A stretch of DNA of 37,568 nt from Proteobacteria bacterium UBA7821 (GCA_002480165.1 DLBP01000019.1:1-37568), one strand, 5' to 3'; positions 12,636 to 20,303 are shown, numbered from the stretch's first letter. Program-made: numbers and translations. Notes: a model not told the origin generated them from the sequence alone.

Positions 12636-12923
12636 TTACTCAATTACATGTTGACTCCCACTATCGATTGGTAGGGATGATGTGCTAATGTCCTTGTTGA
12701 TGTAACCAATCAGTAGACTCGTCATGAAAAACATGGCGGCTAGAAAGGTCGTTAGTTTAACCAACCCATTGCCGCTGGTCTGCCCTTTGCTGAGAAGGCC
12801 CTGTGAGCTTCCACTGCCAAAGGCGATCCCTAGGTTAGCTCCTTTGCCTTTTTGTAATAAAACCAGTATCATCAGACTGACACAGACTGTGACGTGAGTG
12901 ATGTACAATATTGCTGTTCGCAT
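12636..12923 (-). CDS. secG: Preprotein translocase subunit SecG
   Basis: 95 aa with two TM segments flanking a Gly-rich loop (LLQKGKGANLGIAFGSGSSQGL). The tRNA-Leu(GAG) immediately downstream matches the classical secG-leuU arrangement. Confidence 0.85.
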   Translation of the reverse strand: MRTAILYITHVTVCVSLMILVLLQKGKGANLGIAFGSGSSQGLLSKGQTSGNGLVKLTTFLAAMFFMTSLLIGYINKDISTSSLPIDSGSQHVIE

Positions 12924-13022
12924 TAGGTGAATACCTTTATATCAGTTTACTCTCACTGATCATACGATAAGTAATGATTTATGTCAACAACTGATCTGTC
13001 TGATTCAAATAGTCAAAAGTGC

Positions 13023-13051
13023 TTGCAATGAGGCGGATTGCTGTTTATAAT
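13023..13051 (+). promoter_or_regulatory. Sigma70-type promoter for the rpsF operon (TTGCAA-N17-TATAAT)
   Basis: TTGCAA at 13023..13028, a 17-nt spacer, TATAAT at 13046..13051. GAGGAG SD at 13091..13096, 4 nt before ATG 13101. Confidence 0.6.
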
Positions 13052-13100
13052 AGATCGGTTTTGAGTCAACCATGTCGAGTTATTTAACCTGAGGAGTCGT

Positions 13101-13673
13101 ATGGCATTACAACAAGCAAACGCCAAAAAGCACTACGAGATAGTAGCAATTATACACCCTGATCACAGCGATCAGATCAGTGAGATCATCGATCGATACG
13201 CATTGATCGTTTCGGACAACAATGGAGCGATTCATCGGAAAGAAGACTCCGGGAGAAGGCGACTTGCCTACCCAATACAGAAAGTATATAAAGGTCATTT
13301 TATCCTCTTTAACATCGAAGCCGACATCGAGACGCTTGCCAAACTAGAGTACCAGTTCAAGTACAGTGATCTCGTGCTCAGGTCACTCGTTGTTAAGGTC
13401 GATAAGCCTGCTGTTGGTGATTCAGCTTTATTGAAAACAAATAAAGACAGCCCAAAATCAGGGTCAGAGCGTCAGAGTATCATCGCAAACGCAAGAAAGA
13501 ATGACTTGGACTACAAAGATTCGAGAGCCGTGTCGAAATTCATATTAGAATCGGGCCGCATTATTCCAAACCGCGTTTTAGGTCTGCCAGCTCGCCGTCA
13601 AAGACAAGTGTCAGTTGCTGTCAAGCGCGCTAGGTACCTGTCTCTGGTAGCATACTGTGACCGACATCAATAG
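13101..13673 (+). CDS. rpsF: Ribosomal protein S6 fused in frame to ribosomal protein S18 (single 190-aa ORF)
   Basis: Residues ~9-100 are S6-like (HYEIVAIIHPDHSDQ…RRRLAYPIQK…HFILFNIEA…). Residues ~130-190 are S18-like (LDYKD…ESGRIIPNRV.G…RRQRQV..AVKRARYLSLVAYCDRHQ). I re-translated 13383..13673 codon by codon and found no in-frame stop and no ATG between the two parts. Confidence 0.85.
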   Translation: MALQQANAKKHYEIVAIIHPDHSDQISEIIDRYALIVSDNNGAIHRKEDSGRRRLAYPIQKVYKGHFILFNIEADIETLAKLEYQFKYSDLVLRSLVVKVDKPAVGDSALLKTNKDSPKSGSERQSIIANARKNDLDYKDSRAVSKFILESGRIIPNRVLGLPARRQRQVSVAVKRARYLSLVAYCDRHQ

Positions 13674-13685
13674 TCACTGATTGCT

Positions 13686-14663
13686 ATGGTAGATCAAGCA
13701 GAAAAAAGTTACATCGTTCGTCTTGGAGAGTTCGTACTCAAAGACTACAGATACGCTATTCTAGTGACATTGACACTGGCTTTCTTAGATTACTACATGC
13801 CAATCCTTGGCAGTGTCGTGTGTGTTGTCCTTGGTCTGGTGGTGCTCAATAAGCCTGAACGAGAATCACTATTGTTATCTGTAATCGTAACGATATTGAC
13901 ACTGTTTACGACTTATTACGAACTCCAAGTGTTGCCACCATCCGCAGAAGCACTCAAGTTACCCATGATTCTCATGTCAGCATATGGGCCAGTTGCAACG
14001 TGGCTGGGTTGCTCGATTTTGAGAAAATATAAATCGTTTTCGCTGGTCATCGAAGGGCTAAGTATCTTGGCCATGGTACTGTTGCTGCTTATCTATATTG
14101 TCAATATCGACATTCAGTATGAACTGGCGACGTACATCAATCCTATGCTAAGAGAATTCGCCAACGCAAATCCCACTTATGATACAACCAATCTAAAGGC
14201 TTTGTTGGCTAACAGTCTCATCGGTATTGTCATGTTACCAAAGATGTTGATGGCAGTGATTTACATTGTGTTGGCGTACAAATGGTCATCAGGTCTTGTG
14301 GGTAAGCCGAAAAAGACAAGAGCACTGCTCAAGGTTGTCAAGTTGAGCTATCTATTTTATTTGACAGTCATCGTCGCCTTCCTGTTACTCACACTGCTGA
14401 ATATGATGAGTAACCATCCAGTCAATGCCGCTTTTGTATCGTGTGCTAATTTATTACCAGTTGTGACACTCACTTGCGCTTTCGGTGGGCTGTCCTTATT
14501 CTACCTCTATCTCGATACCACAAAGATGAAAAAGAAACAGAAGCTCATTGCTGAGTGTTTCTTCTACTTCTTTCTTTACATTATGCCCTATTTTCTGGTA
14601 GTGTTAGCAGTCTTGGGTATACTGGGTTCGGGGACGAGTCTGAGAAAAAAACTAACGAAATAG
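13686..14663 (+). CDS. Multi-pass inner-membrane protein of unknown function, possibly DUF2232/YybS-like
   Basis: 325 aa with about 8 hydrophobic segments and a Lys-rich C-terminus. It sits between rpsR and rplI, where Firmicutes carry the DUF2232 protein YybS. The family assignment is inference from context, not motif recognition. Confidence 0.5.
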   Translation: MVDQAEKSYIVRLGEFVLKDYRYAILVTLTLAFLDYYMPILGSVVCVVLGLVVLNKPERESLLLSVIVTILTLFTTYYELQVLPPSAEALKLPMILMSAYGPVATWLGCSILRKYKSFSLVIEGLSILAMVLLLLIYIVNIDIQYELATYINPMLREFANANPTYDTTNLKALLANSLIGIVMLPKMLMAVIYIVLAYKWSSGLVGKPKKTRALLKVVKLSYLFYLTVIVAFLLLTLLNMMSNHPVNAAFVSCANLLPVVTLTCAFGGLSLFYLYLDTTKMKKKQKLIAECFFYFFLYIMPYFLVVLAVLGILGSGTSLRKKLTK

Positions 14664-14673
14664 GAGATTTAAA

Positions 14674-15138
14674 ATGATAGAGCTTTTGCTTTGCGAATCA
14701 ATAGTTAATTTAGGTAGAGTCGGCGACAAAGTGTCTGTATCAGATGGCTACGCAAGAAACTATTTATTGCCTTATGGTAAGGCAGTGGACGTGACTCCGG
14801 AAAATCTAGTGATATTCGAAAAGAAACGCAAAGAGTACGAGAAGAAAGAGGCCGATATACTAGAACAAGCTAAAGTCCTCGCCAAAGCAGTTGAAGCGGT
14901 TGATCTCGTCTTTTCAGAGAAAGTGCTTGAGGATGATGAGTCAAGGCTTTATGGTTCAGTTGGTGGTGTTGACATTGTTCAACAATTCGTCAAACAGGGT
15001 GTTGATGTCAAGAAAAATCAGGTTAATATCGGTGTGGGCGTCATTAAAACAGTCGGTACCTTCGAGTGCTCAATCGCACTGCATTCGGAAGTAGTTGTTA
15101 AAAAAATCGTTACGGTTGAGGCTCTAGTACAAGACTAG
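14674..15138 (+). CDS. rplI: Ribosomal protein L9
   Basis: 154 aa with …VNLGRVGDKVSVSDGYARNYLLPYGKAV…. AGGAG SD upstream. Confidence 0.93.
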   Translation: MIELLLCESIVNLGRVGDKVSVSDGYARNYLLPYGKAVDVTPENLVIFEKKRKEYEKKEADILEQAKVLAKAVEAVDLVFSEKVLEDDESRLYGSVGGVDIVQQFVKQGVDVKKNQVNIGVGVIKTVGTFECSIALHSEVVVKKIVTVEALVQD

Positions 15139-15142
15139 CGCT

Positions 15143-16498
15143 ATGAATAATCCACTTCAACCGGCTACTGCACCACATTCAATAGAAGCAGAACGCTATG
15201 TGATCGGTGGGTTGATGTTGGATGCCGATGCTTGGGAAAGAATTTCTGGTAAAGTAGTCGAGTCAGACTTTTATATCCCCAAACATCAGGTCATATTTAG
15301 TAAAATTGAATCTCTGTATCAGGCGCAGAAGCCGTTTGATACATTAATGTTAGCAGAGTTTCTAAAAAGCCACGACTTACTTGATAAAGCTGGCGGCGAG
15401 TCCTACCTGATCACTTTGGCTAGTGAAACCCCATCGACAGCACACATAGAGGCCTATGCCGATTTGATTCGTGAACGATCAATCTGTCGACAAATAGCTG
15501 ATGTTTGCCAGCAAGGGGCCAAACTGGCTTACCGAATGGGCGACAACAGTTCGAATGATCTACTGAATGAGGTCGAAGCCAATATCTTTGCGATTGGTGA
15601 CCAAACCAGTTCAGTAAAAGGTCCAGAGCCAGTCCAACAAGTGTTAACCAGAACGACAGCAAAAATAGATGAATTGCATGCATCTGGCGGCACGTTTACT
15701 GGCCTCGAAACAGGATTTCGTGACCTCGATAAGCTCGTTCTCGGACTAGAGCCGGGTGATCTTGTTATCGTTGCTGGACGTCCCTCGATGGGTAAAACAC
15801 TGTTTGCAATGAACCTAGTTGAACAAGTTGCCATCAGTAAAAAGCAACCAGCGCTGATTTTCAGTCTTGAGATGTCTGCAGAATCTCTTGTTATGCGGAT
15901 GCTCTCATCCCTAGGCCGCATCCATCAGTCAAAAGTTAGGTCTGGCCAATTAGAAGATGAGGACTGGCCGCGGCTTACTTCAGCGGTTTCTATTGTTTCT
16001 CAGGCGCCCATTTTTATTGATGACATCGCATCCTTGTCACCAACCGAGCTGAGAGCGCGTGTGCGGCGAATGACTCGCAGACACGGGAAATTAGGGATTG
16101 TTGTCGTTGATTACCTCCAGTTAATGCACATGCCTGGTTCAAGAGAATCTAGAACCATTGAAGTATCTGAAATATCTAGAACGCTCAAGTGTGTGGCTAA
16201 AGAAATGGAAGTGCCAATTGTTGTGTTGTCCCAGCTGAATAGAAGTTTAGAGCAACGGCAGGACAAACGACCAGTCATGTCTGACTTACGAGAGTCTGGT
16301 GCAATCGAGCAAGATGCAGACATCATCAGTTTTATTTATCGTGATGAAGTCTACAACGAAGATTCACCCGATAAAGGTGCTGCCGAGATTATCATAGCAA
16401 AACAGAGAAATGGGCCCATCGGTAAGGTTAAATTAACATTTCTAGGCCAGTTTTGCCGTTTTGAAAACTTCAGCTCGATTAATGATGCATCAGTTTAA
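15143..16498 (+). CDS. dnaB: Replicative DNA helicase DnaB
   Basis: 451 aa with PHSIEAERYVIGGLM, Walker A GRPSMGKT, VVVDYLQLM, LSQLNRSLEQR and IIAKQRNGPIG. Confidence 0.95.
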   Translation: MNNPLQPATAPHSIEAERYVIGGLMLDADAWERISGKVVESDFYIPKHQVIFSKIESLYQAQKPFDTLMLAEFLKSHDLLDKAGGESYLITLASETPSTAHIEAYADLIRERSICRQIADVCQQGAKLAYRMGDNSSNDLLNEVEANIFAIGDQTSSVKGPEPVQQVLTRTTAKIDELHASGGTFTGLETGFRDLDKLVLGLEPGDLVIVAGRPSMGKTLFAMNLVEQVAISKKQPALIFSLEMSAESLVMRMLSSLGRIHQSKVRSGQLEDEDWPRLTSAVSIVSQAPIFIDDIASLSPTELRARVRRMTRRHGKLGIVVVDYLQLMHMPGSRESRTIEVSEISRTLKCVAKEMEVPIVVLSQLNRSLEQRQDKRPVMSDLRESGAIEQDADIISFIYRDEVYNEDSPDKGAAEIIIAKQRNGPIGKVKLTFLGQFCRFENFSSINDASV

Positions 16499-16848: not shown

Positions 16849-17517
16849 GTGAGTATCGACAACATGTTGCACATAATAATAGCCATAGCCTGCCTAACGG
16901 CAACCGTCACAGCATCAAGCCCAATTGATCAGATGAAACAGGTCTTTCTTAATCAAATTGAGCGTGCTACAGTTGTGGACCTATTGCTAGAGCATTTATC
17001 GATACAATTCGTCAACGAACAGTCTGACATTGGTCTGACAGAGTATCAATATTGCTCTGAAATCCCCGGTGATTCTATCTGCTCAGGTAAATCACAAGCC
17101 GTGAATGACGCTGAAAAACAAGTCATTATCCGTACCATTCAGGCAGGGTTTGTTCAAGAAGATAGCATCTTCTCTGATGAAATGGTTGCTTTATTCTCTG
17201 GTAATCTCTGTCTGGTCGTACAATTTAAAAACAATACTGAATACACTGGCATATCACCGCTGATTGCATCTAAACAAATTGTTTTTTGTGCCAAGTCTAC
17301 TGGTGTTGGTCAAGAGTTAATCCATATCAGTTTATTGGGCGAGGTGAACCAAAATCCATCCCATGGTATGATTTCAGGTTGGCGATGCTTCAATAACCCA
17401 GATTTTGAACGCAATGATGGCTTAGCAATGGGCGATGTCGTGATTGATACTGAGGCATATGGTTTTCTTAATAATGCGAAGACCATCTGGAGCATTTGTT
17501 CACGTTCACCTGACTAG
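16849..17517 (+). CDS. Secreted hypothetical protein (Sec signal peptide, six Cys in the mature part)
   Basis: The track ORF starts at GTG 16849, but ATG 16864 (MLHIIIAIACLTATVTA|SSP) is the more likely start. N-terminal hydrophobic signal with a VTA-type cleavage site. I recognise no family. Confidence 0.6.
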   Translation: MSIDNMLHIIIAIACLTATVTASSPIDQMKQVFLNQIERATVVDLLLEHLSIQFVNEQSDIGLTEYQYCSEIPGDSICSGKSQAVNDAEKQVIIRTIQAGFVQEDSIFSDEMVALFSGNLCLVVQFKNNTEYTGISPLIASKQIVFCAKSTGVGQELIHISLLGEVNQNPSHGMISGWRCFNNPDFERNDGLAMGDVVIDTEAYGFLNNAKTIWSICSRSPD

Positions 17518-20303
17518 CCAATGTCTTTTTTTAAGCCAAACAAAGTGTGTCTCGCGATCTCGTAACTGGGTAGTCGAGAGCTTAGTTTCATATCAACAGG
17601 CTGATCATTGAGGATAATTCTCAACTCATATTGTTGTGTGGCTTGGTTCATATGGCGCATATTGGCAGATTCTAATAATCGAAATAAAGCCCAAGGCCCA
17701 CTAGTTGTTTTGAACAGTGTCTCGTCATCGCGTTTGGTTACTTGTAGGATGACTGTGTCCGCCGTTGTTGGTGCTGGCCAGTGAACACCAATTGATGTGC
17801 GTTGACTTGGGTATAACATGATATTTTTACGCTGACTAATGAGGTTAATGTGGTCAATCGTATCAGCACTGGTTGATGCAGTGATACCAAAATCAACCCC
17901 TGGGCGGTCACCCTGTTCATAAAAAGCACCCTGGATTAGCTTCACTTTTGCGCAGTAGTTATAGATGTAATCACTAACAGTGATAGATGGTCGTGTTGAG
18001 TCATTGGCAATCCAACTGCCATCTGTAAAAGTAAAGAATGGCTCGATGTAACGCTGCATGAAAATACTCGCAATACCACTGACTGGGTTGAAGTATGCAT
18101 CAAAGTCATCGATGCTCAGATCAAAGTGACTGTCAGTGTTAATTGGATACAGCTCATTGAGTTTTTCGAGATGATGCTTTTTGATAACATTAGTCCACAC
18201 TGTCTCGACGTGCTGTTTGGCATGCTGTGAAAACAACTCGGTTAAGTGTTGCTTGAGTGAGGTCAAGTATGCGTTAAAACGCTCATCTTCTGCCGTTGAT
18301 TTCATGAACTCGATATTCATACCAGTGGCTTGTTTTTTTGCGATTATAAAGCTTCTGTGATCTGTATTTTTATCGATTATATTCAAGACGACTCGCTGAT
18401 ATTCACTAAGCACTTCCCTGAATTTCTGTATAGTAGACGTTTCGTGGTGTTTCCTTAGCGTGTTTTTTACCAGCTCGTTATGATCATCGCTAAGCCAATC
18501 GGATGCATTGATGGTTTCTAGTCTATTTTCTGGTGACATGGAATCGATATTAGCGATCGTTGTCTCTAGTGCTGCTGCGATCGCCTGATAGCTACTGTCA
18601 TAAGTTGAAAGCTGAATGTTGTCGTGGTTTTGTTGTGAGATGTCAATAATCGCGCTGGTGATTCTGCGTTGATCATCGCTGGATTGGGTTTCAGTATACC
18701 AGCGTTGGAGCGTCTCAAAGAGTGAGGTCTCTTTGAGCTCAAGTGACAGAAGTAACTGGACTCGTTGATCCATATCACTGTGCTGAAATTGAGCGTTAAT
18801 GCTATTGATAAAGCTGGCTTCTTCTTCAGGTCTCGATGCTAAATAGTTCCCAAGCAGCTGGCTATCGGTTTGGTAACTGTGAAATAGGTGTGGTAAAACA
18901 TCACTTAGCGCGAGTGTTTTCTGCGAGACAAGTAGGCGTTTTAGGTCATCAAGGTCATCGCTGTCTTGGGTTAGTAGGTGATCAACCAAGCCCTGGGCAA
19001 GTAGTGGCAATGTATCGGATGATAAGGTCTGTTCAATCTGCTCTGCGAGTGGTTTAAGCGCTTTCAATTGAATGTCTTTGGTGTCAATAAGAGACAAGAG
19101 ACTGTTGTTTTTATCGCTTTGATTAATAGCACTGTGCATGATCTTTTGCTGAATTGTGTAATCTAGTCTTTTGTGTTGATAGGCCGCAAGACAATAAAAA
19201 GGGATGGCACTAATGGCAATGGTTAGCAGCCATTTCTTCTGAGATTTTGGAAGAGTCTTTGCTTGTTCAGTGAATTGATTATACAGGTAGGCAGGCCTCA
19301 GCTGATTAGCCGTTTGTATGGCAGGAAGGCTGTAGTTGACTTGCTGACTGTTGTCAATTAATTGGTCTTCAGTAAATTCTGATAAGTGAGTTAGCGTGAT
19401 TTGACGCAGGCTCGAAGTACCCATGTATAACACAAGGCGCTTGAGTGGTTGCATACAGGCAAATATTTGCCCCGGGAACTCAATCAGGTTGAACCTGGAT
19501 TTTTGTGTTCTAATTTGCGGTAGTCCTTTTTGGATTAAGGTGAACGTGTTGTTGGATTTAAAGTTAAATTGACGAATCAATTCAACAATTTGTTGTTCGG
19601 GAGTTCCCTGGTTGAGTGAGAAAGTTAGCTGTTCTTGTAGTAGATGTGGGTCGATATACTTATTCGCCTCGTGATAACCAATAATTTGGTCGGCATAGCT
19701 AATGACCACGTGGACAGCTGCTGGACACGTTTGAAAACTCTGTATCCAAGGTTGGATTTTATGATTGTTAGCGATGAGGTCAGGAAAGCGCGATACAATG
19801 ACAATTTGGGACAGTTTTTTTCCAACGATGTCGGAGATGATTTCGTGGCAACTGGTAATGCCTGAGCTCGTTTCATCTTGACTGCTGAGTTCTAGAATGA
19901 GTACCTTGTCACTGATGTAGGCTTGCAGTATGTGGGTCCTTTTGTCCTGACTCTGATGGACTTTTGGGCTATATCGCTGCATGATTAACGCTGTTTTTCC
20001 TGACTGGTGATTACCAATGACAAGCACAACAGACTCAATATCACGTTTATATAATTGAACGATCCCTTTGACTTCTTTAGCCAGTTTCTCTTGAAAGACC
20101 TCAGCCCGTCTCTGACGGTTACGTTTCGGATGCAGGTGATGTGTGATAACGCCATAACTGAATAAGCCGATTAAGACGGCAACTCGGCTGACTTCTGCAG
20201 CCAACGGTTGCCAACCATCAATGGCAATTAACGGGCCGTAAAACCAAGTGAATGTTGCGACGAGTAGTAAGCATGAAAGCCGTATAACTTGTATGAGGGT
20301 CAT
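17514..20303 (-). CDS. icmF: IcmF/TssM-family inner-membrane protein with Walker A NTPase domain
   Basis: Two N-terminal TM segments, then a cytoplasmic domain with Walker A GNHQSGKT. A third TM lies near aa 385-405 (WLLTIAISAIPFYCLAAY), followed by a ~545-aa periplasmic C-terminal domain, which is the IcmF/TssM architecture. It directly follows a DotU-like gene. Start chosen at ATG 20303 (ATGA overlap with the dotU stop); the track start is 20366. Confidence 0.65.
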   Translation of the reverse strand: MTLIQVIRLSCLLLVATFTWFYGPLIAIDGWQPLAAEVSRVAVLIGLFSYGVITHHLHPKRNRQRRAEVFQEKLAKEVKGIVQLYKRDIESVVLVIGNHQSGKTALIMQRYSPKVHQSQDKRTHILQAYISDKVLILELSSQDETSSGITSCHEIISDIVGKKLSQIVIVSRFPDLIANNHKIQPWIQSFQTCPAAVHVVISYADQIIGYHEANKYIDPHLLQEQLTFSLNQGTPEQQIVELIRQFNFKSNNTFTLIQKGLPQIRTQKSRFNLIEFPGQIFACMQPLKRLVLYMGTSSLRQITLTHLSEFTEDQLIDNSQQVNYSLPAIQTANQLRPAYLYNQFTEQAKTLPKSQKKWLLTIAISAIPFYCLAAYQHKRLDYTIQQKIMHSAINQSDKNNSLLSLIDTKDIQLKALKPLAEQIEQTLSSDTLPLLAQGLVDHLLTQDSDDLDDLKRLLVSQKTLALSDVLPHLFHSYQTDSQLLGNYLASRPEEEASFINSINAQFQHSDMDQRVQLLLSLELKETSLFETLQRWYTETQSSDDQRRITSAIIDISQQNHDNIQLSTYDSSYQAIAAALETTIANIDSMSPENRLETINASDWLSDDHNELVKNTLRKHHETSTIQKFREVLSEYQRVVLNIIDKNTDHRSFIIAKKQATGMNIEFMKSTAEDERFNAYLTSLKQHLTELFSQHAKQHVETVWTNVIKKHHLEKLNELYPINTDSHFDLSIDDFDAYFNPVSGIASIFMQRYIEPFFTFTDGSWIANDSTRPSITVSDYIYNYCAKVKLIQGAFYEQGDRPGVDFGITASTSADTIDHINLISQRKNIMLYPSQRTSIGVHWPAPTTADTVILQVTKRDDETLFKTTSGPWALFRLLESANMRHMNQATQQYELRIILNDQPVDMKLSSRLPSYEIARHTLFGLKKDIG

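What the first reader, a model, noticed from the sequence alone, without database searches (positions are those of the whole stretch)
13101..13673. Ribosomal proteins S6 and S18 encoded as one in-frame fusion ORF
The first ~100 residues are a normal S6 fold signature. The last ~60 residues align with the conserved core of S18 through the terminal RARYLSL..Y.DRHQ. The two parts are joined by a ~30-aa Ser/Lys-rich linker (GDSALLKTNKDSPKSGSERQSIIANARKN). This linker replaces both the acidic S6 tail and the basic N-terminal ~12 residues of S18. I re-translated the junction codon by codon and found no stop, no frameshift and no internal ATG. No priB or separate rpsR lies between rpsF and rplI. S6 and S18 bind the 30S platform as an obligate heterodimer, so a covalent fusion is structurally conceivable, but I know of no described natural example. 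It could also be an assembly deletion.
Basis: partly seen in the sequence, partly recalled or inferred. Interest (0 to 1): 0.7.

Follow-up and report, generated by a model that had tools for sequence, protein, structure and literature searches.

The report
Natural fused S6–S18 ribosomal protein gene
Two ribosomal proteins that normally pair up as separate chains (S6 and S18) are encoded here as one continuous protein; the fusion is real, kept by selection, shared by a whole group of host-associated marine bacteria, and seems never to have been discussed in print.

Summary
Window 13101..13673 (+) is one stop-free 190-codon ORF with a full bS6 domain (Pfam E 2e-24) and a bS18 core (E 3e-15), joined by a ~31-aa linker. 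It is not an assembly artefact. Syntenic orthologs at 75% and 65% protein identity (~70% DNA identity) keep the same frame and linker length (±1 aa), with synonymous sites saturated and pN low. About 30 clusters at 50% identity of equally compact (168–204 aa) S6–S18 fusions exist in NCBI, ENA, JGI and Logan data. They lie on contigs up to 1.5 Mb, always followed by a membrane protein gene and rplI. One carrier is Candidatus Comchoanobacterales (GTDB UBA7916, Coxiella relatives). That lineage's published supplementary table assigns bS6 and bS18 to the same gene in both genomes, without comment. NCBI names these proteins "30S ribosomal protein S6". Other Gammaproteobacteria sampled, including Coxiellaceae and Francisella, keep separate genes. 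No solved structure has both domains in one chain. AlphaFold gives confident two-domain models (pTM 0.85). Most likely the fusion arose by loss of the rpsF stop and spacer, and serves as the cell's only S6 and S18. It is a real, apparently undescribed variant of a known system, of moderate interest.

The parts
13023..13051 (+). Sigma-70-like promoter candidate (TTGCAA, 17 nt, TATAAT) for the fusion operon
   Evidence: The consensus scan matches 10 of 12 positions. This is only a consensus match, and the number of such sites in the region is no higher than in shuffles. Its function is inferred.
13091..13096 (+). Shine-Dalgarno GAGGAG, 4 nt upstream of the ATG
   Evidence: Read directly from the sequence. 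AGGAG-type Shine-Dalgarno sites also precede the orthologous starts in L002, L003, L006 and L013.
13101..13673 (+). Fused rpsF-rpsR ORF encoding a 190-aa bS6-bS18 single chain (21.6 kDa, pI 9.75)
13128..13403 (+). bS6 domain, residues 10-101
   Evidence: Pfam PF01250 and TIGR00166. AlphaFold predicts a beta-alpha-beta-beta-alpha-beta fold with pLDDT 95-98. Foldseek matches bS6 chains at TM (target) 0.91-0.95.
13404..13496 (+). Linker, residues 102-132 (KPAVGDSALLKTNKDSPKSGSERQSIIANAR), net charge +3. It descends from the S6 C-terminal extension plus a decayed S18 N-terminus.
   Evidence: Junction mapping used HMMs built from unfused relatives. Linker pN is 0.30-0.46 against pS 0.78-0.92, and its length is conserved to within 1 aa across three lineages. 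The family range is 23-51 aa. Only residues ~111-120 have low pLDDT.
13497..13670 (+). bS18 core, residues 133-190, corresponding to stand-alone S18 positions 18-75. The basic N-terminal ~17 residues are absent.
   Evidence: PF01084 and TIGR00165. A custom S18 HMM aligns positions 18-75. PDB bS18 chains align to query residues 133/134-190.
13686..14663 (+). 325-aa multi-pass membrane protein (weak DUF2232 match), the conserved partner gene between the fusion and rplI
   Evidence: The Pfam match is E 4e-6, below the gathering score. A ~290-325-aa gene occupies the same position in L002, L003, L006, L104, L105 and L106.
14674..15138 (+). rplI (bL9)
   Evidence: Pfam L9_N and L9_C, and TIGR00158.
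15143..16498 (+). dnaB, the end of the conserved gene block
   Evidence: Synteny is shown.

Best explanation
This is a genuine, selectively maintained gene fusion. The result is one polypeptide: bS6 fold, then a ~31-aa linker, then the bS18 core. It is most likely the cell's only source of both proteins. It is probably built into the 30S platform as a pre-formed, obligatorily 1:1 'single-chain heterodimer' that binds the 16S central domain after uS15, as the normal S6:S18 dimer does. The linker is what remains of the S6 C-terminal extension and the S18 N-terminal tail. The acidic S6 tail has been lost. In this lineage the basic S18 tail has decayed beyond recognition. The fusion is shared by a diverse radiation of uncultured, host-associated Legionellales-like Gammaproteobacteria that includes Candidatus Comchoanobacterales. 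Shown here: the ORF, both domains, conservation under purifying selection, recurrence in many independent assemblies, and the restricted taxonomic distribution. Inferred: the origin by stop loss, incorporation as an uncleaved single chain, the absence of a second rpsR in this particular genome, and any functional advantage.
For: - **ORF and domains:**
- **Orthologs in independent assemblies with the same synteny:** L002 (75% aa, 69% nt) and L089 (65% aa, ~70% nt).
- **Selection:** pS is 0.78-0.93 (saturated). pN is 0.12-0.23 in the domains and 0.30-0.46 in the linker. The frame and linker length are kept.
- **Breadth:** an exhaustive phmmer search finds about 30 clusters at 50% identity of 172-204-aa proteins that match residues 10-190 in one stretch. 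The alignment shows one architecture.
- **Long-contig contexts** show the same fusion/membrane protein/rplI block: 1.5 Mb (L003), 216 kb (L006, Comchoanobacterales MAG GCA_049889175.1), 43 kb (L104), 170 kb (L105) and 12 kb (L106).
- **Published Comchoano genomes:** PF01084 and PF01250 are both assigned to Comchoano-1_280 and to Comchoano-2_1_267. Gene 280 is 552 nt and has transcript counts.
- **Vestigial basic S18 N-terminus** survives in the linkers of P0121/L013, P0126, P0283, P0140 and P0133, where S18 HMM homology starts at position 4-6.
- **No conserved internal SD plus start codon** before the S18 part.
- **AlphaFold:** pLDDT 91.7 and pTM 0.85 for the window protein, and 92.3 and 0.85 for a member with a 24-aa linker.
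- **Geometry:** the bS6 C-terminal extension and bS18 line one groove on the 30S platform (PMC7797042), so the fused ends are natural neighbours.
Against: - Only 37.5 kb of this genome is available, so a second rpsR elsewhere cannot be excluded for this organism.
- The Comchoano table lists one gene per Pfam family, so it does not strictly prove there is no weaker second hit.
- No protein-level evidence exists. Cleavage in the flexible linker (residues ~111-120) would go unseen.
I could not verify that the predicted inter-domain packing equals the native S6:S18 interface, and pTM is only an indirect indicator.
- A single origin is not established. The S6+S18 tree has no bootstrap support. In the DnaB tree L013 groups with unfused Coxiellaceae.
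Confidence: 0.8

Rival explanations
1. The fusion is an assembly or sequencing artefact: a deletion or indel removed the rpsF stop and the rpsR start, and the organism really has two genes.
For: Sporadic artefact-like fusions do exist in metagenome data. P0288/L007 lies on a frameshift-ridden long-read contig. P0284 and P0285 keep a complete S18, including its Met, behind a full S6 tail. L088 is 100% identical in DNA to the window, so it is not an independent confirmation.
Against: L002 and L089 are about 30% diverged in DNA yet keep the same frame, the same linker length and low pN. About 30 diverged clusters share the architecture. They come from different sequencing and assembly projects, including single-cell genomes.
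Confidence: 0.02
2. The ORF is real, but the cell still ends up with two proteins. Either the linker is cleaved after translation, or S18 is also made separately by internal initiation.
For: The linker has a low-confidence, Ser/Lys-rich stretch (residues ~111-120, pLDDT 66) that a protease could reach. The window has in-frame TTG codons at positions 111 and 136. Eukaryotic ubiquitin-r-protein fusions are cleaved (general knowledge).
Against: No start codon with an SD is conserved before the S18 part. L003, L006 and L089 have none in the linker, and the window's TTG at codon 136 has no SD, whereas the real starts have AGGAG. No conserved cleavage motif is visible in the very variable linkers. 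A cleaved product would lack the tails that normal S6 and S18 carry.
Confidence: 0.12
3. The fused gene is a decaying or accessory paralog, and the working rpsF and/or rpsR lie elsewhere in the genome.
For: Only a 37.5-kb window is available. Detectable S18 homology lacks the N-terminal 17 residues.
Against: Both domains are under strong purifying selection (pN 0.12-0.23 with saturated pS). The gene keeps the canonical operon position before rplI with a strong SD. In the published Comchoano genomes the S18 and S6 Pfam hits are this one gene, and it is transcribed. No second S18 occurs in any of the fetched flanks.
Confidence: 0.05

Closest known systems
Canonical bacterial bS6:bS18 heterodimer encoded by rpsF-(priB)-rpsR-rplI (E. 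coli, Pseudomonas, Thermus)
   Same: The two folds are the same, with the same N-to-C order as the gene order. The operon position upstream of rplI is the same. The conserved rRNA-binding core residues are kept: invariant R94, R158, Q167 and R178. PDB bS6 and bS18 chains align at E 1e-35 and 5e-16.
   Different: Here there is one polypeptide instead of two. The acidic S6 C-terminal tail is missing (the RimK substrate in E. coli, general knowledge). The S18 N-terminus is neither free nor basic (the RimI acetylation site in E. coli, general knowledge). The linker is 31 aa, whereas the two tails together total ~66 aa in unfused relatives. No S6:S18 leader is detectable. No PDB chain spans both domains.
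Comchoano-1_280 / Comchoano-2_1_267 and the NCBI 'MAG: 30S ribosomal protein S6 [Candidatus Comchoanobacterales bacterium]' protein (P0287)
   Same: The fused architecture and length class (182-184 aa) are the same. The block fusion/membrane protein/rplI/dnaB, followed by IcmF(-) and recR(-), is the same. In the DnaB NJ tree they are the window clade's sister group.
   Different: They share only ~31-35% identity with the window protein and lie on a very long branch. Their upstream neighbour differs (SpoU methylase instead of secG), and alr is present downstream. The fusion is recorded in a supplementary table but never discussed.
Bacteroidetes platform pocket formed by the bS6 C-terminal helix, bS18 and bS21, which sequesters the anti-Shine-Dalgarno sequence (PMC7797042)
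   Same: The lineage-specific remodelling affects the same part of the ribosome: the segment just after the S6 fold, and bS18, which line a groove for the 16S 3' tail. AlphaFold predicts helical segments in the window linker at residues 109-112 and 121-133.
   Different: In Bacteroidetes the proteins are not fused. Genes of the present lineage keep strong SD sequences, so anti-SD sequestration is not expected here.
Sporadic read-through-type S6-S18 ORFs in other Gammaproteobacteria (P0284, P0285, P0288, P0006)
   Same: A single ORF carries both Pfam domains.
   Different: They are 210-253 aa long. They keep the long acidic or Ala-rich S6 tail and, except P0006, a complete S18 with its own Met and FRRRKFC motif. 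They nest among unfused Lysobacterales- and Chromatiales-like sequences. P0288's contig shows frameshifts. They are likely errors or very recent events, and not part of the compact family.

Membership tests
bS6 (PF01250 / TIGR00166) | Full-length match to the S6 profile above the curated cutoff | tested here: met
   PF01250 matches model positions 1-90 of 90 at 85.9 bits against a cutoff of 27. TIGR00166 scores 79 bits against 42.9.
bS6 (PF01250 / TIGR00166) | Split beta-alpha-beta ferredoxin-like fold superposable on solved bS6 | tested here: met
   The AlphaFold model has secondary-structure elements E10-18, H20-39, E43-59, E62-74, H76-88 and E92-100. Foldseek TM (target) is 0.91-0.95 with rmsd ~1 A to bS6 chains. 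This rests on a predicted, not experimental, structure.
bS18 (PF01084 / TIGR00165) | Match to the conserved S18 core above the curated cutoff | tested here: met
   PF01084 matches model positions 2-51 of 52 at 56.6 bits against a cutoff of 21. TIGR00165 scores 62.1 bits against 38.75.
bS18 (PF01084 / TIGR00165) | Free, basic N-terminal tail (consensus MARFFRRKKFCRFTAEG in gammaproteobacterial relatives) | tested here: not met
   An HMM of 88 stand-alone S18 proteins aligns only positions 18-75 to the window protein. The corresponding stretch, SERQSIIANARKN, is not recognisably homologous. Some other fused members retain positions 4-17.
Canonical S6:S18 heterodimer system | Two separate polypeptides from separate cistrons | tested here: not met
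   There is a single ORF without a stop. No conserved internal start exists.
Canonical S6:S18 heterodimer system | Incorporation into the 30S platform next to uS15, uS11 and bS21 | not testable with these tools
   This needs ribosome purification or cryo-EM. There is only indirect support, from conservation and from AlphaFold pTM 0.85.
S6:S18-binding autoregulatory leader of rpsF (PMC4647458) | Structured 5'-UTR element recognisable by the Rfam model or as a stable conserved hairpin | tested here: not met
   No Rfam match even at E<=10 in 12900..13750. The leader folds no better than shuffles (z = 0.73). The upstream regions of the three orthologs are not conserved apart from the SD and an A-rich box.
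Candidatus Comchoanobacterales (GTDB UBA7916), as the source organism | Phylogenomic placement inside the order | tested here: inconclusive
   Three results favour membership. Extended synteny is shared, including IcmF and recR. A fused MFS-Aas gene is shared. The DnaB NJ tree places the window clade as sister to L003/L006. Against it, bootstrap support is weak, and DnaB identity to everything outside its own clade is only ~58-61%. No rRNA or multi-marker tree was possible.

The most novel reading that the evidence does not exclude
The fusion may be more than a neutral product of genome reduction. It could be an adaptive redesign of the 30S platform. Under this reading, replacing the acidic S6 tail and the basic S18 tail with one short tether changes the groove that handles the 16S 3' end and the mRNA exit. 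It also hard-wires 1:1 stoichiometry and so makes the lost S6:S18 autoregulatory leader unnecessary. The lineage would then have a distinct assembly and initiation regime. If the P0121/L013 type really lies within unfused Coxiellaceae, the fusion would also have arisen more than once.
Probability: 0.2. Interest if true: 0.7.

Novelty: new variant of a known kind. Interest (0 to 1): 0.55.

Why it matters
- **Ribosome assembly.** S6 and S18 are the textbook case of two ribosomal proteins that must bind rRNA together. A lineage-wide natural single-chain version is a ready-made experiment on cooperative 30S assembly, on the roles of the S6 and S18 tails, and on how r-protein stoichiometry is controlled without the usual leader.
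- **Annotation.** Pipelines call the protein 'S6', so S18 appears to be missing from these genomes.
- **Marker-gene workflows.** Phylogenomic pipelines with length filters would tend to discard fused proteins of this kind; the Comchoano study excluded proteins deviating by more than 30% from the median length. That could bias completeness estimates and trees for this group.
- **Taxonomic marker.** The fusion could serve as a simple synapomorphy-like marker for this poorly known group of protist-associated bacteria.

Tried and rejected
- **GTDB scan with the single protein** found nothing.
- **Two profile scans** failed because the alignments were too diverse. A narrower alignment worked, but only the best 80 of at least 600 loci were returned, so the taxonomic survey is incomplete.
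- **S6+S18 NJ tree:** the point estimate puts 35 of 36 compact fusions in one clade, but there is no bootstrap support (an earlier run timed out). The DnaB tree is only suggestive.
- **Rfam and folding** of the 5' leader gave nothing.
- **Literature searches** for a described S6-S18/bS6-bS18/rpsF-rpsR fusion found nothing relevant. Two queries were malformed.
- **AlphaFold coordinates** are not exposed. I could measure neither the distance spanned by the linker nor the inter-domain interface.
- **L018 (Francisella MAG)** looked fused by spacing but has a normal stand-alone S18.
- **L088** was rejected as independent evidence because it is 100% identical in DNA to the window.
- **The 'rpsR = 0' entry** in the Comchoano DNA-replication gene table was not used, because its meaning is unclear.

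Full report
**1. Observation**

Window 13101..13673 (+) is a single ORF of 190 codons with one Met, at the start, and no internal stop.
- Pfam finds Ribosomal_S6 over residues 11-99 (E 2.2e-24) and Ribosomal_S18 over residues 133-182 (E 2.7e-15).
- The NCBIfam equivalogs TIGR00166 (residues 10-101) and TIGR00165 (residues 128-187) both exceed their curated cutoffs.
- The gene has a strong Shine-Dalgarno (GAGGAG, 13091..13096) and a sigma-70-like promoter candidate at 13023..13051.
- It is followed after 12 nt by a 325-aa membrane protein (weak DUF2232 match), then rplI and dnaB.
- tblastn with E. coli S18 and PriB finds no other S18 and no PriB in the window.

**2. Real or artefact?**

The large protein database holds fused proteins at 99%, 75% and 62% identity. 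The 75% protein (P0002) lies on a Logan contig, L002, with the same gene order: secG(-), fusion, 325-aa membrane protein, rplI, dnaB. A metagenome scan added L089, at 65% identity. L089 is fused and also shares nuoA/B, tRNA-Leu and secG upstream. At DNA level L002 and L089 are only about 69-70% identical to the window.

Nei-Gojobori counts show:

| Region | pN | pS |
|---|---|---|
| S6 domain | 0.12-0.23 | 0.90-0.93 |
| S18 domain | 0.15-0.19 | 0.83-0.93 |
| Linker | 0.30-0.46 | 0.78-0.92 |

Synonymous sites are saturated, and linker length is constant to within one residue. The junction has therefore been kept in frame and translated under purifying selection through a long divergence.

L088 (TARA CESB01140015.1) is 100% identical in DNA to the window. 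It was not counted as independent.

**3. How widespread?**

An exhaustive phmmer search of 1.84 billion cluster representatives at 50% identity returned about 30 representatives of 172-204 aa. Each matches query residues 10-190 in one stretch. Their alignment shows one architecture: an S6 fold, a conserved 'A-x-T-x-x-S' segment, a variable linker, then S18 from '(I/V)DYK(N/D)' to 'LPYCDRH'.

Members sit on long contigs from independent projects:

| Locus or protein | Source | Contig length |
|---|---|---|
| L003 | ENA | 1.5 Mb |
| L006 | NCBI MAG GCA_049889175.1, named Candidatus Comchoanobacterales | 216 kb |
| L104 | NCBI GCA_028145415.1; its protein MDA9832596.1 is called '30S ribosomal protein S6' | 43 kb |
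| L105 | ENA | 170 kb |
| L106 | Logan | 12 kb |

All have fusion/~290-311-aa membrane protein/rplI. L003, L006 and the window further share dnaB, then IcmF(-) and recR(-).

Among the best 80 GTDB species representatives returned by a profile scan, only two are fused: L011 (uncultured Legionellales) and L013 ('Legionellaceae bacterium SAT2595'). Coxiellaceae MAGs, Francisella, Thiomicrorhabdus, Cardiobacterium, Pseudomonadales, Lysobacterales, Neisseria, Pasteurellaceae and the rest have separate genes. That scan kept 80 of at least 600 hits, so it is a sample and not a census.

**4. Is the fused gene the only S18?**

For this genome I cannot tell beyond the 37.5 kb. For the related Comchoanobacterales, the supplementary r-protein table of Needham et al. 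2022 (PMC9418006) lists PF01084/bS18 and PF01250/bS6 under the same gene in both genomes: Comchoano-1_280 and Comchoano-2_1_267. Gene 280 spans 294361..294912 (552 nt), lies between a SpoU methylase and L9/DnaB/IcmF, and has transcript counts similar to its neighbours. The main text contains no occurrence of 'S18', 'rpsF' or 'fusion'. The table gives one gene per family, so this is strong support but not formal proof.

**5. Anatomy of the junction**

HMMs built from 88 unfused neighbour loci show that in the window protein S18 homology begins at position 18 of the 75-residue stand-alone consensus (MARFFRRKKFCRFTAEG|VKEIDYKD...). The basic N-terminal tail is therefore not detectable. In P0121/L013, P0283, P0126, P0140 and P0133, homology begins at position 4-6, and the linkers still read like the tail (for example RFRRKKQSPF, FGRKKLSGF).

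Measured from the end of the last S6 strand to the residue before IDYK, linker length is 23-51 aa (median 33). Unfused relatives carry about 47 aa of S6 tail plus about 19 aa of S18 N-terminus. The strongly acidic S6 tail is gone, and linker net charge is about -5 to +7 (+3 here).

This pattern is what loss of the rpsF stop and spacer in an rpsF-rpsR adjacency would produce, followed by shrinkage and drift of the now-internal tails. That origin is an inference.

**6. One chain or two?**

No conserved internal initiation signal exists. L003, L006 and L089 have no in-frame ATG, GTG or TTG in the linker. The window's TTG at codon 136 lacks a Shine-Dalgarno, whereas the real starts carry AGGAG. 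Cleavage after translation cannot be excluded by sequence.

AlphaFold2 with the family alignment gives pLDDT 91.7 and pTM 0.85. Only residues ~111-120 are uncertain, and a helix is predicted at 121-133. A member with a 24-aa linker gives pLDDT 92.3 and pTM 0.85.

Sequence and fold searches of the PDB return only separate bS6 and bS18 chains, each covering about half of the query (TMq ~0.5). The F. johnsoniae ribosome paper shows that the bS6 C-terminal extension and bS18 line one groove on the platform (PMC7797042). The two fused ends are therefore neighbours in the ribosome.

**7. Regulation**

The S6:S18 complex represses rpsF through a leader that mimics its rRNA site (PMC4647458, found). 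No such element is detectable here:
- There is no Rfam hit, even at E<=10.
- The ~45-nt leader folds no better than shuffles.
- The three orthologous upstream regions share little beyond the SD.

A covalent fusion fixes S6:S18 stoichiometry by construction. Whether this replaced feedback control is speculation.

**8. Phylogeny and organism**

DnaB is 93% and 84% identical to two metagenomic relatives. It then drops to 58-61% against Legionella, Fluoribacter, Legionellaceae and Coxiellaceae. The source is therefore a deep, unnamed branch of the Legionellales sensu lato. GC content is about 43-44%.

A DnaB NJ tree groups the window clade with the Comchoanobacterales loci and L011, but places L013 with unfused Coxiellaceae. 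An S6+S18 NJ tree puts 35 of 36 compact fusions in one clade, without bootstrap support. One origin with wide inheritance is the simplest reading. Two origins cannot be excluded.

Separately, P0284, P0285, P0288 and P0006 are long, read-through-type ORFs nested among unfused Lysobacterales and Chromatiales. P0288 is visibly frameshifted. These are sporadic errors or very recent events and not part of the family.

**9. Comparison with the known, and novelty**

Functionally this should work like the canonical S6:S18 heterodimer. It fails two features that define that system: separate chains and the S18 basic tail. It also lacks the leader.

I found no paper describing a natural S6-S18 fusion. 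The data are public but labelled 'S6'. I rate it a new variant of a known kind. It is real, conserved and apparently unreported. It is also mechanistically unsurprising, being a Rosetta-stone fusion of obligate partners in reduced, host-associated genomes that also carry other fusions, such as MFS-Aas.

**10. Verdict**

The assembly-artefact alternative is rejected. Interest is 0.55. Confidence is 0.8 that this is the functional, sole S6/S18 gene of the lineage, and somewhat lower that it stays uncleaved in the ribosome.

Noticed in passing
window 26441..26538 (-) and ORF 24953..26527 (-): A bacterial small SRP RNA (RF00169, 52.8 bits) lies immediately upstream of dnaX. The mechanical dnaX ORF (TTG start) over-extends into it; dnaX homology starts at about residue 35.
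   Followed up: partly
window 26571..27962 (-): The glycyl-tRNA synthetase is the dimeric (alpha2) type (NF003211/TIGR00389). To my knowledge most Gammaproteobacteria use the two-subunit glyQ/glyS type instead (not tested here).
   Followed up: no
window 17514..20366 (-), with recR at 21656..22282 (-): An IcmF/TssM-like membrane protein lies next to small unannotated ORFs and recR. The same dnaB...IcmF(-)...recR(-) arrangement occurs in the Comchoanobacterales loci L003 and L006, which points to a Dot/Icm-type or T6SS-related remnant typical of Legionellales-like symbionts.
   Followed up: partly
window 31028..34447 (+): A 1139-aa fused transporter-acyltransferase matches the equivalog NF005291 (acyl-[ACP]--phospholipid O-acyltransferase) at 1354 bits. 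Needham et al. [quoted passage not shown]
   Followed up: partly
proteins P0004 (197 aa) and P0282 (226 aa), from metagenome data: These proteins consist of two tandem S6 domains (S6-S6) and no S18. They could be real duplications or assembly chimeras.
   Followed up: no
L001 (P0006), L007 (P0288), and proteins P0284 and P0285: These are sporadic long S6-S18 single ORFs in Lysobacterales- and Chromatiales-like contigs. All except P0006 retain a complete S18 with its own Met. L007 shows split genes typical of long-read indel errors. They show that metagenome protein sets contain artefactual fusions alongside the genuine family.
   Followed up: partly
window 12959..12987 (-) and 13023..13051 (+): Back-to-back promoter-like sites lie in the 177-nt secG / rpsF-rpsR intergenic region (11 of 12 and 10 of 12 consensus matches). 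An A-rich box (AAATAnTCAAAAGTG) is shared with the orthologous loci.
   Followed up: partly
Supplement of PMC9418006 (Comchoano-1 and Comchoano-2 r-protein table): uL30 is listed as 'Not found' in both Comchoano genomes, and bL36 as not found in one. This lineage's ribosomal protein set may be reduced in other ways too.
   Followed up: no
window 13686..14663 (+): The 325-aa membrane protein between the fusion and rplI is only weakly DUF2232-like (26.7 bits, below the gathering score). It is nevertheless conserved in position in every fused locus examined. Its link to the ribosomal genes is unexplained.
   Followed up: no
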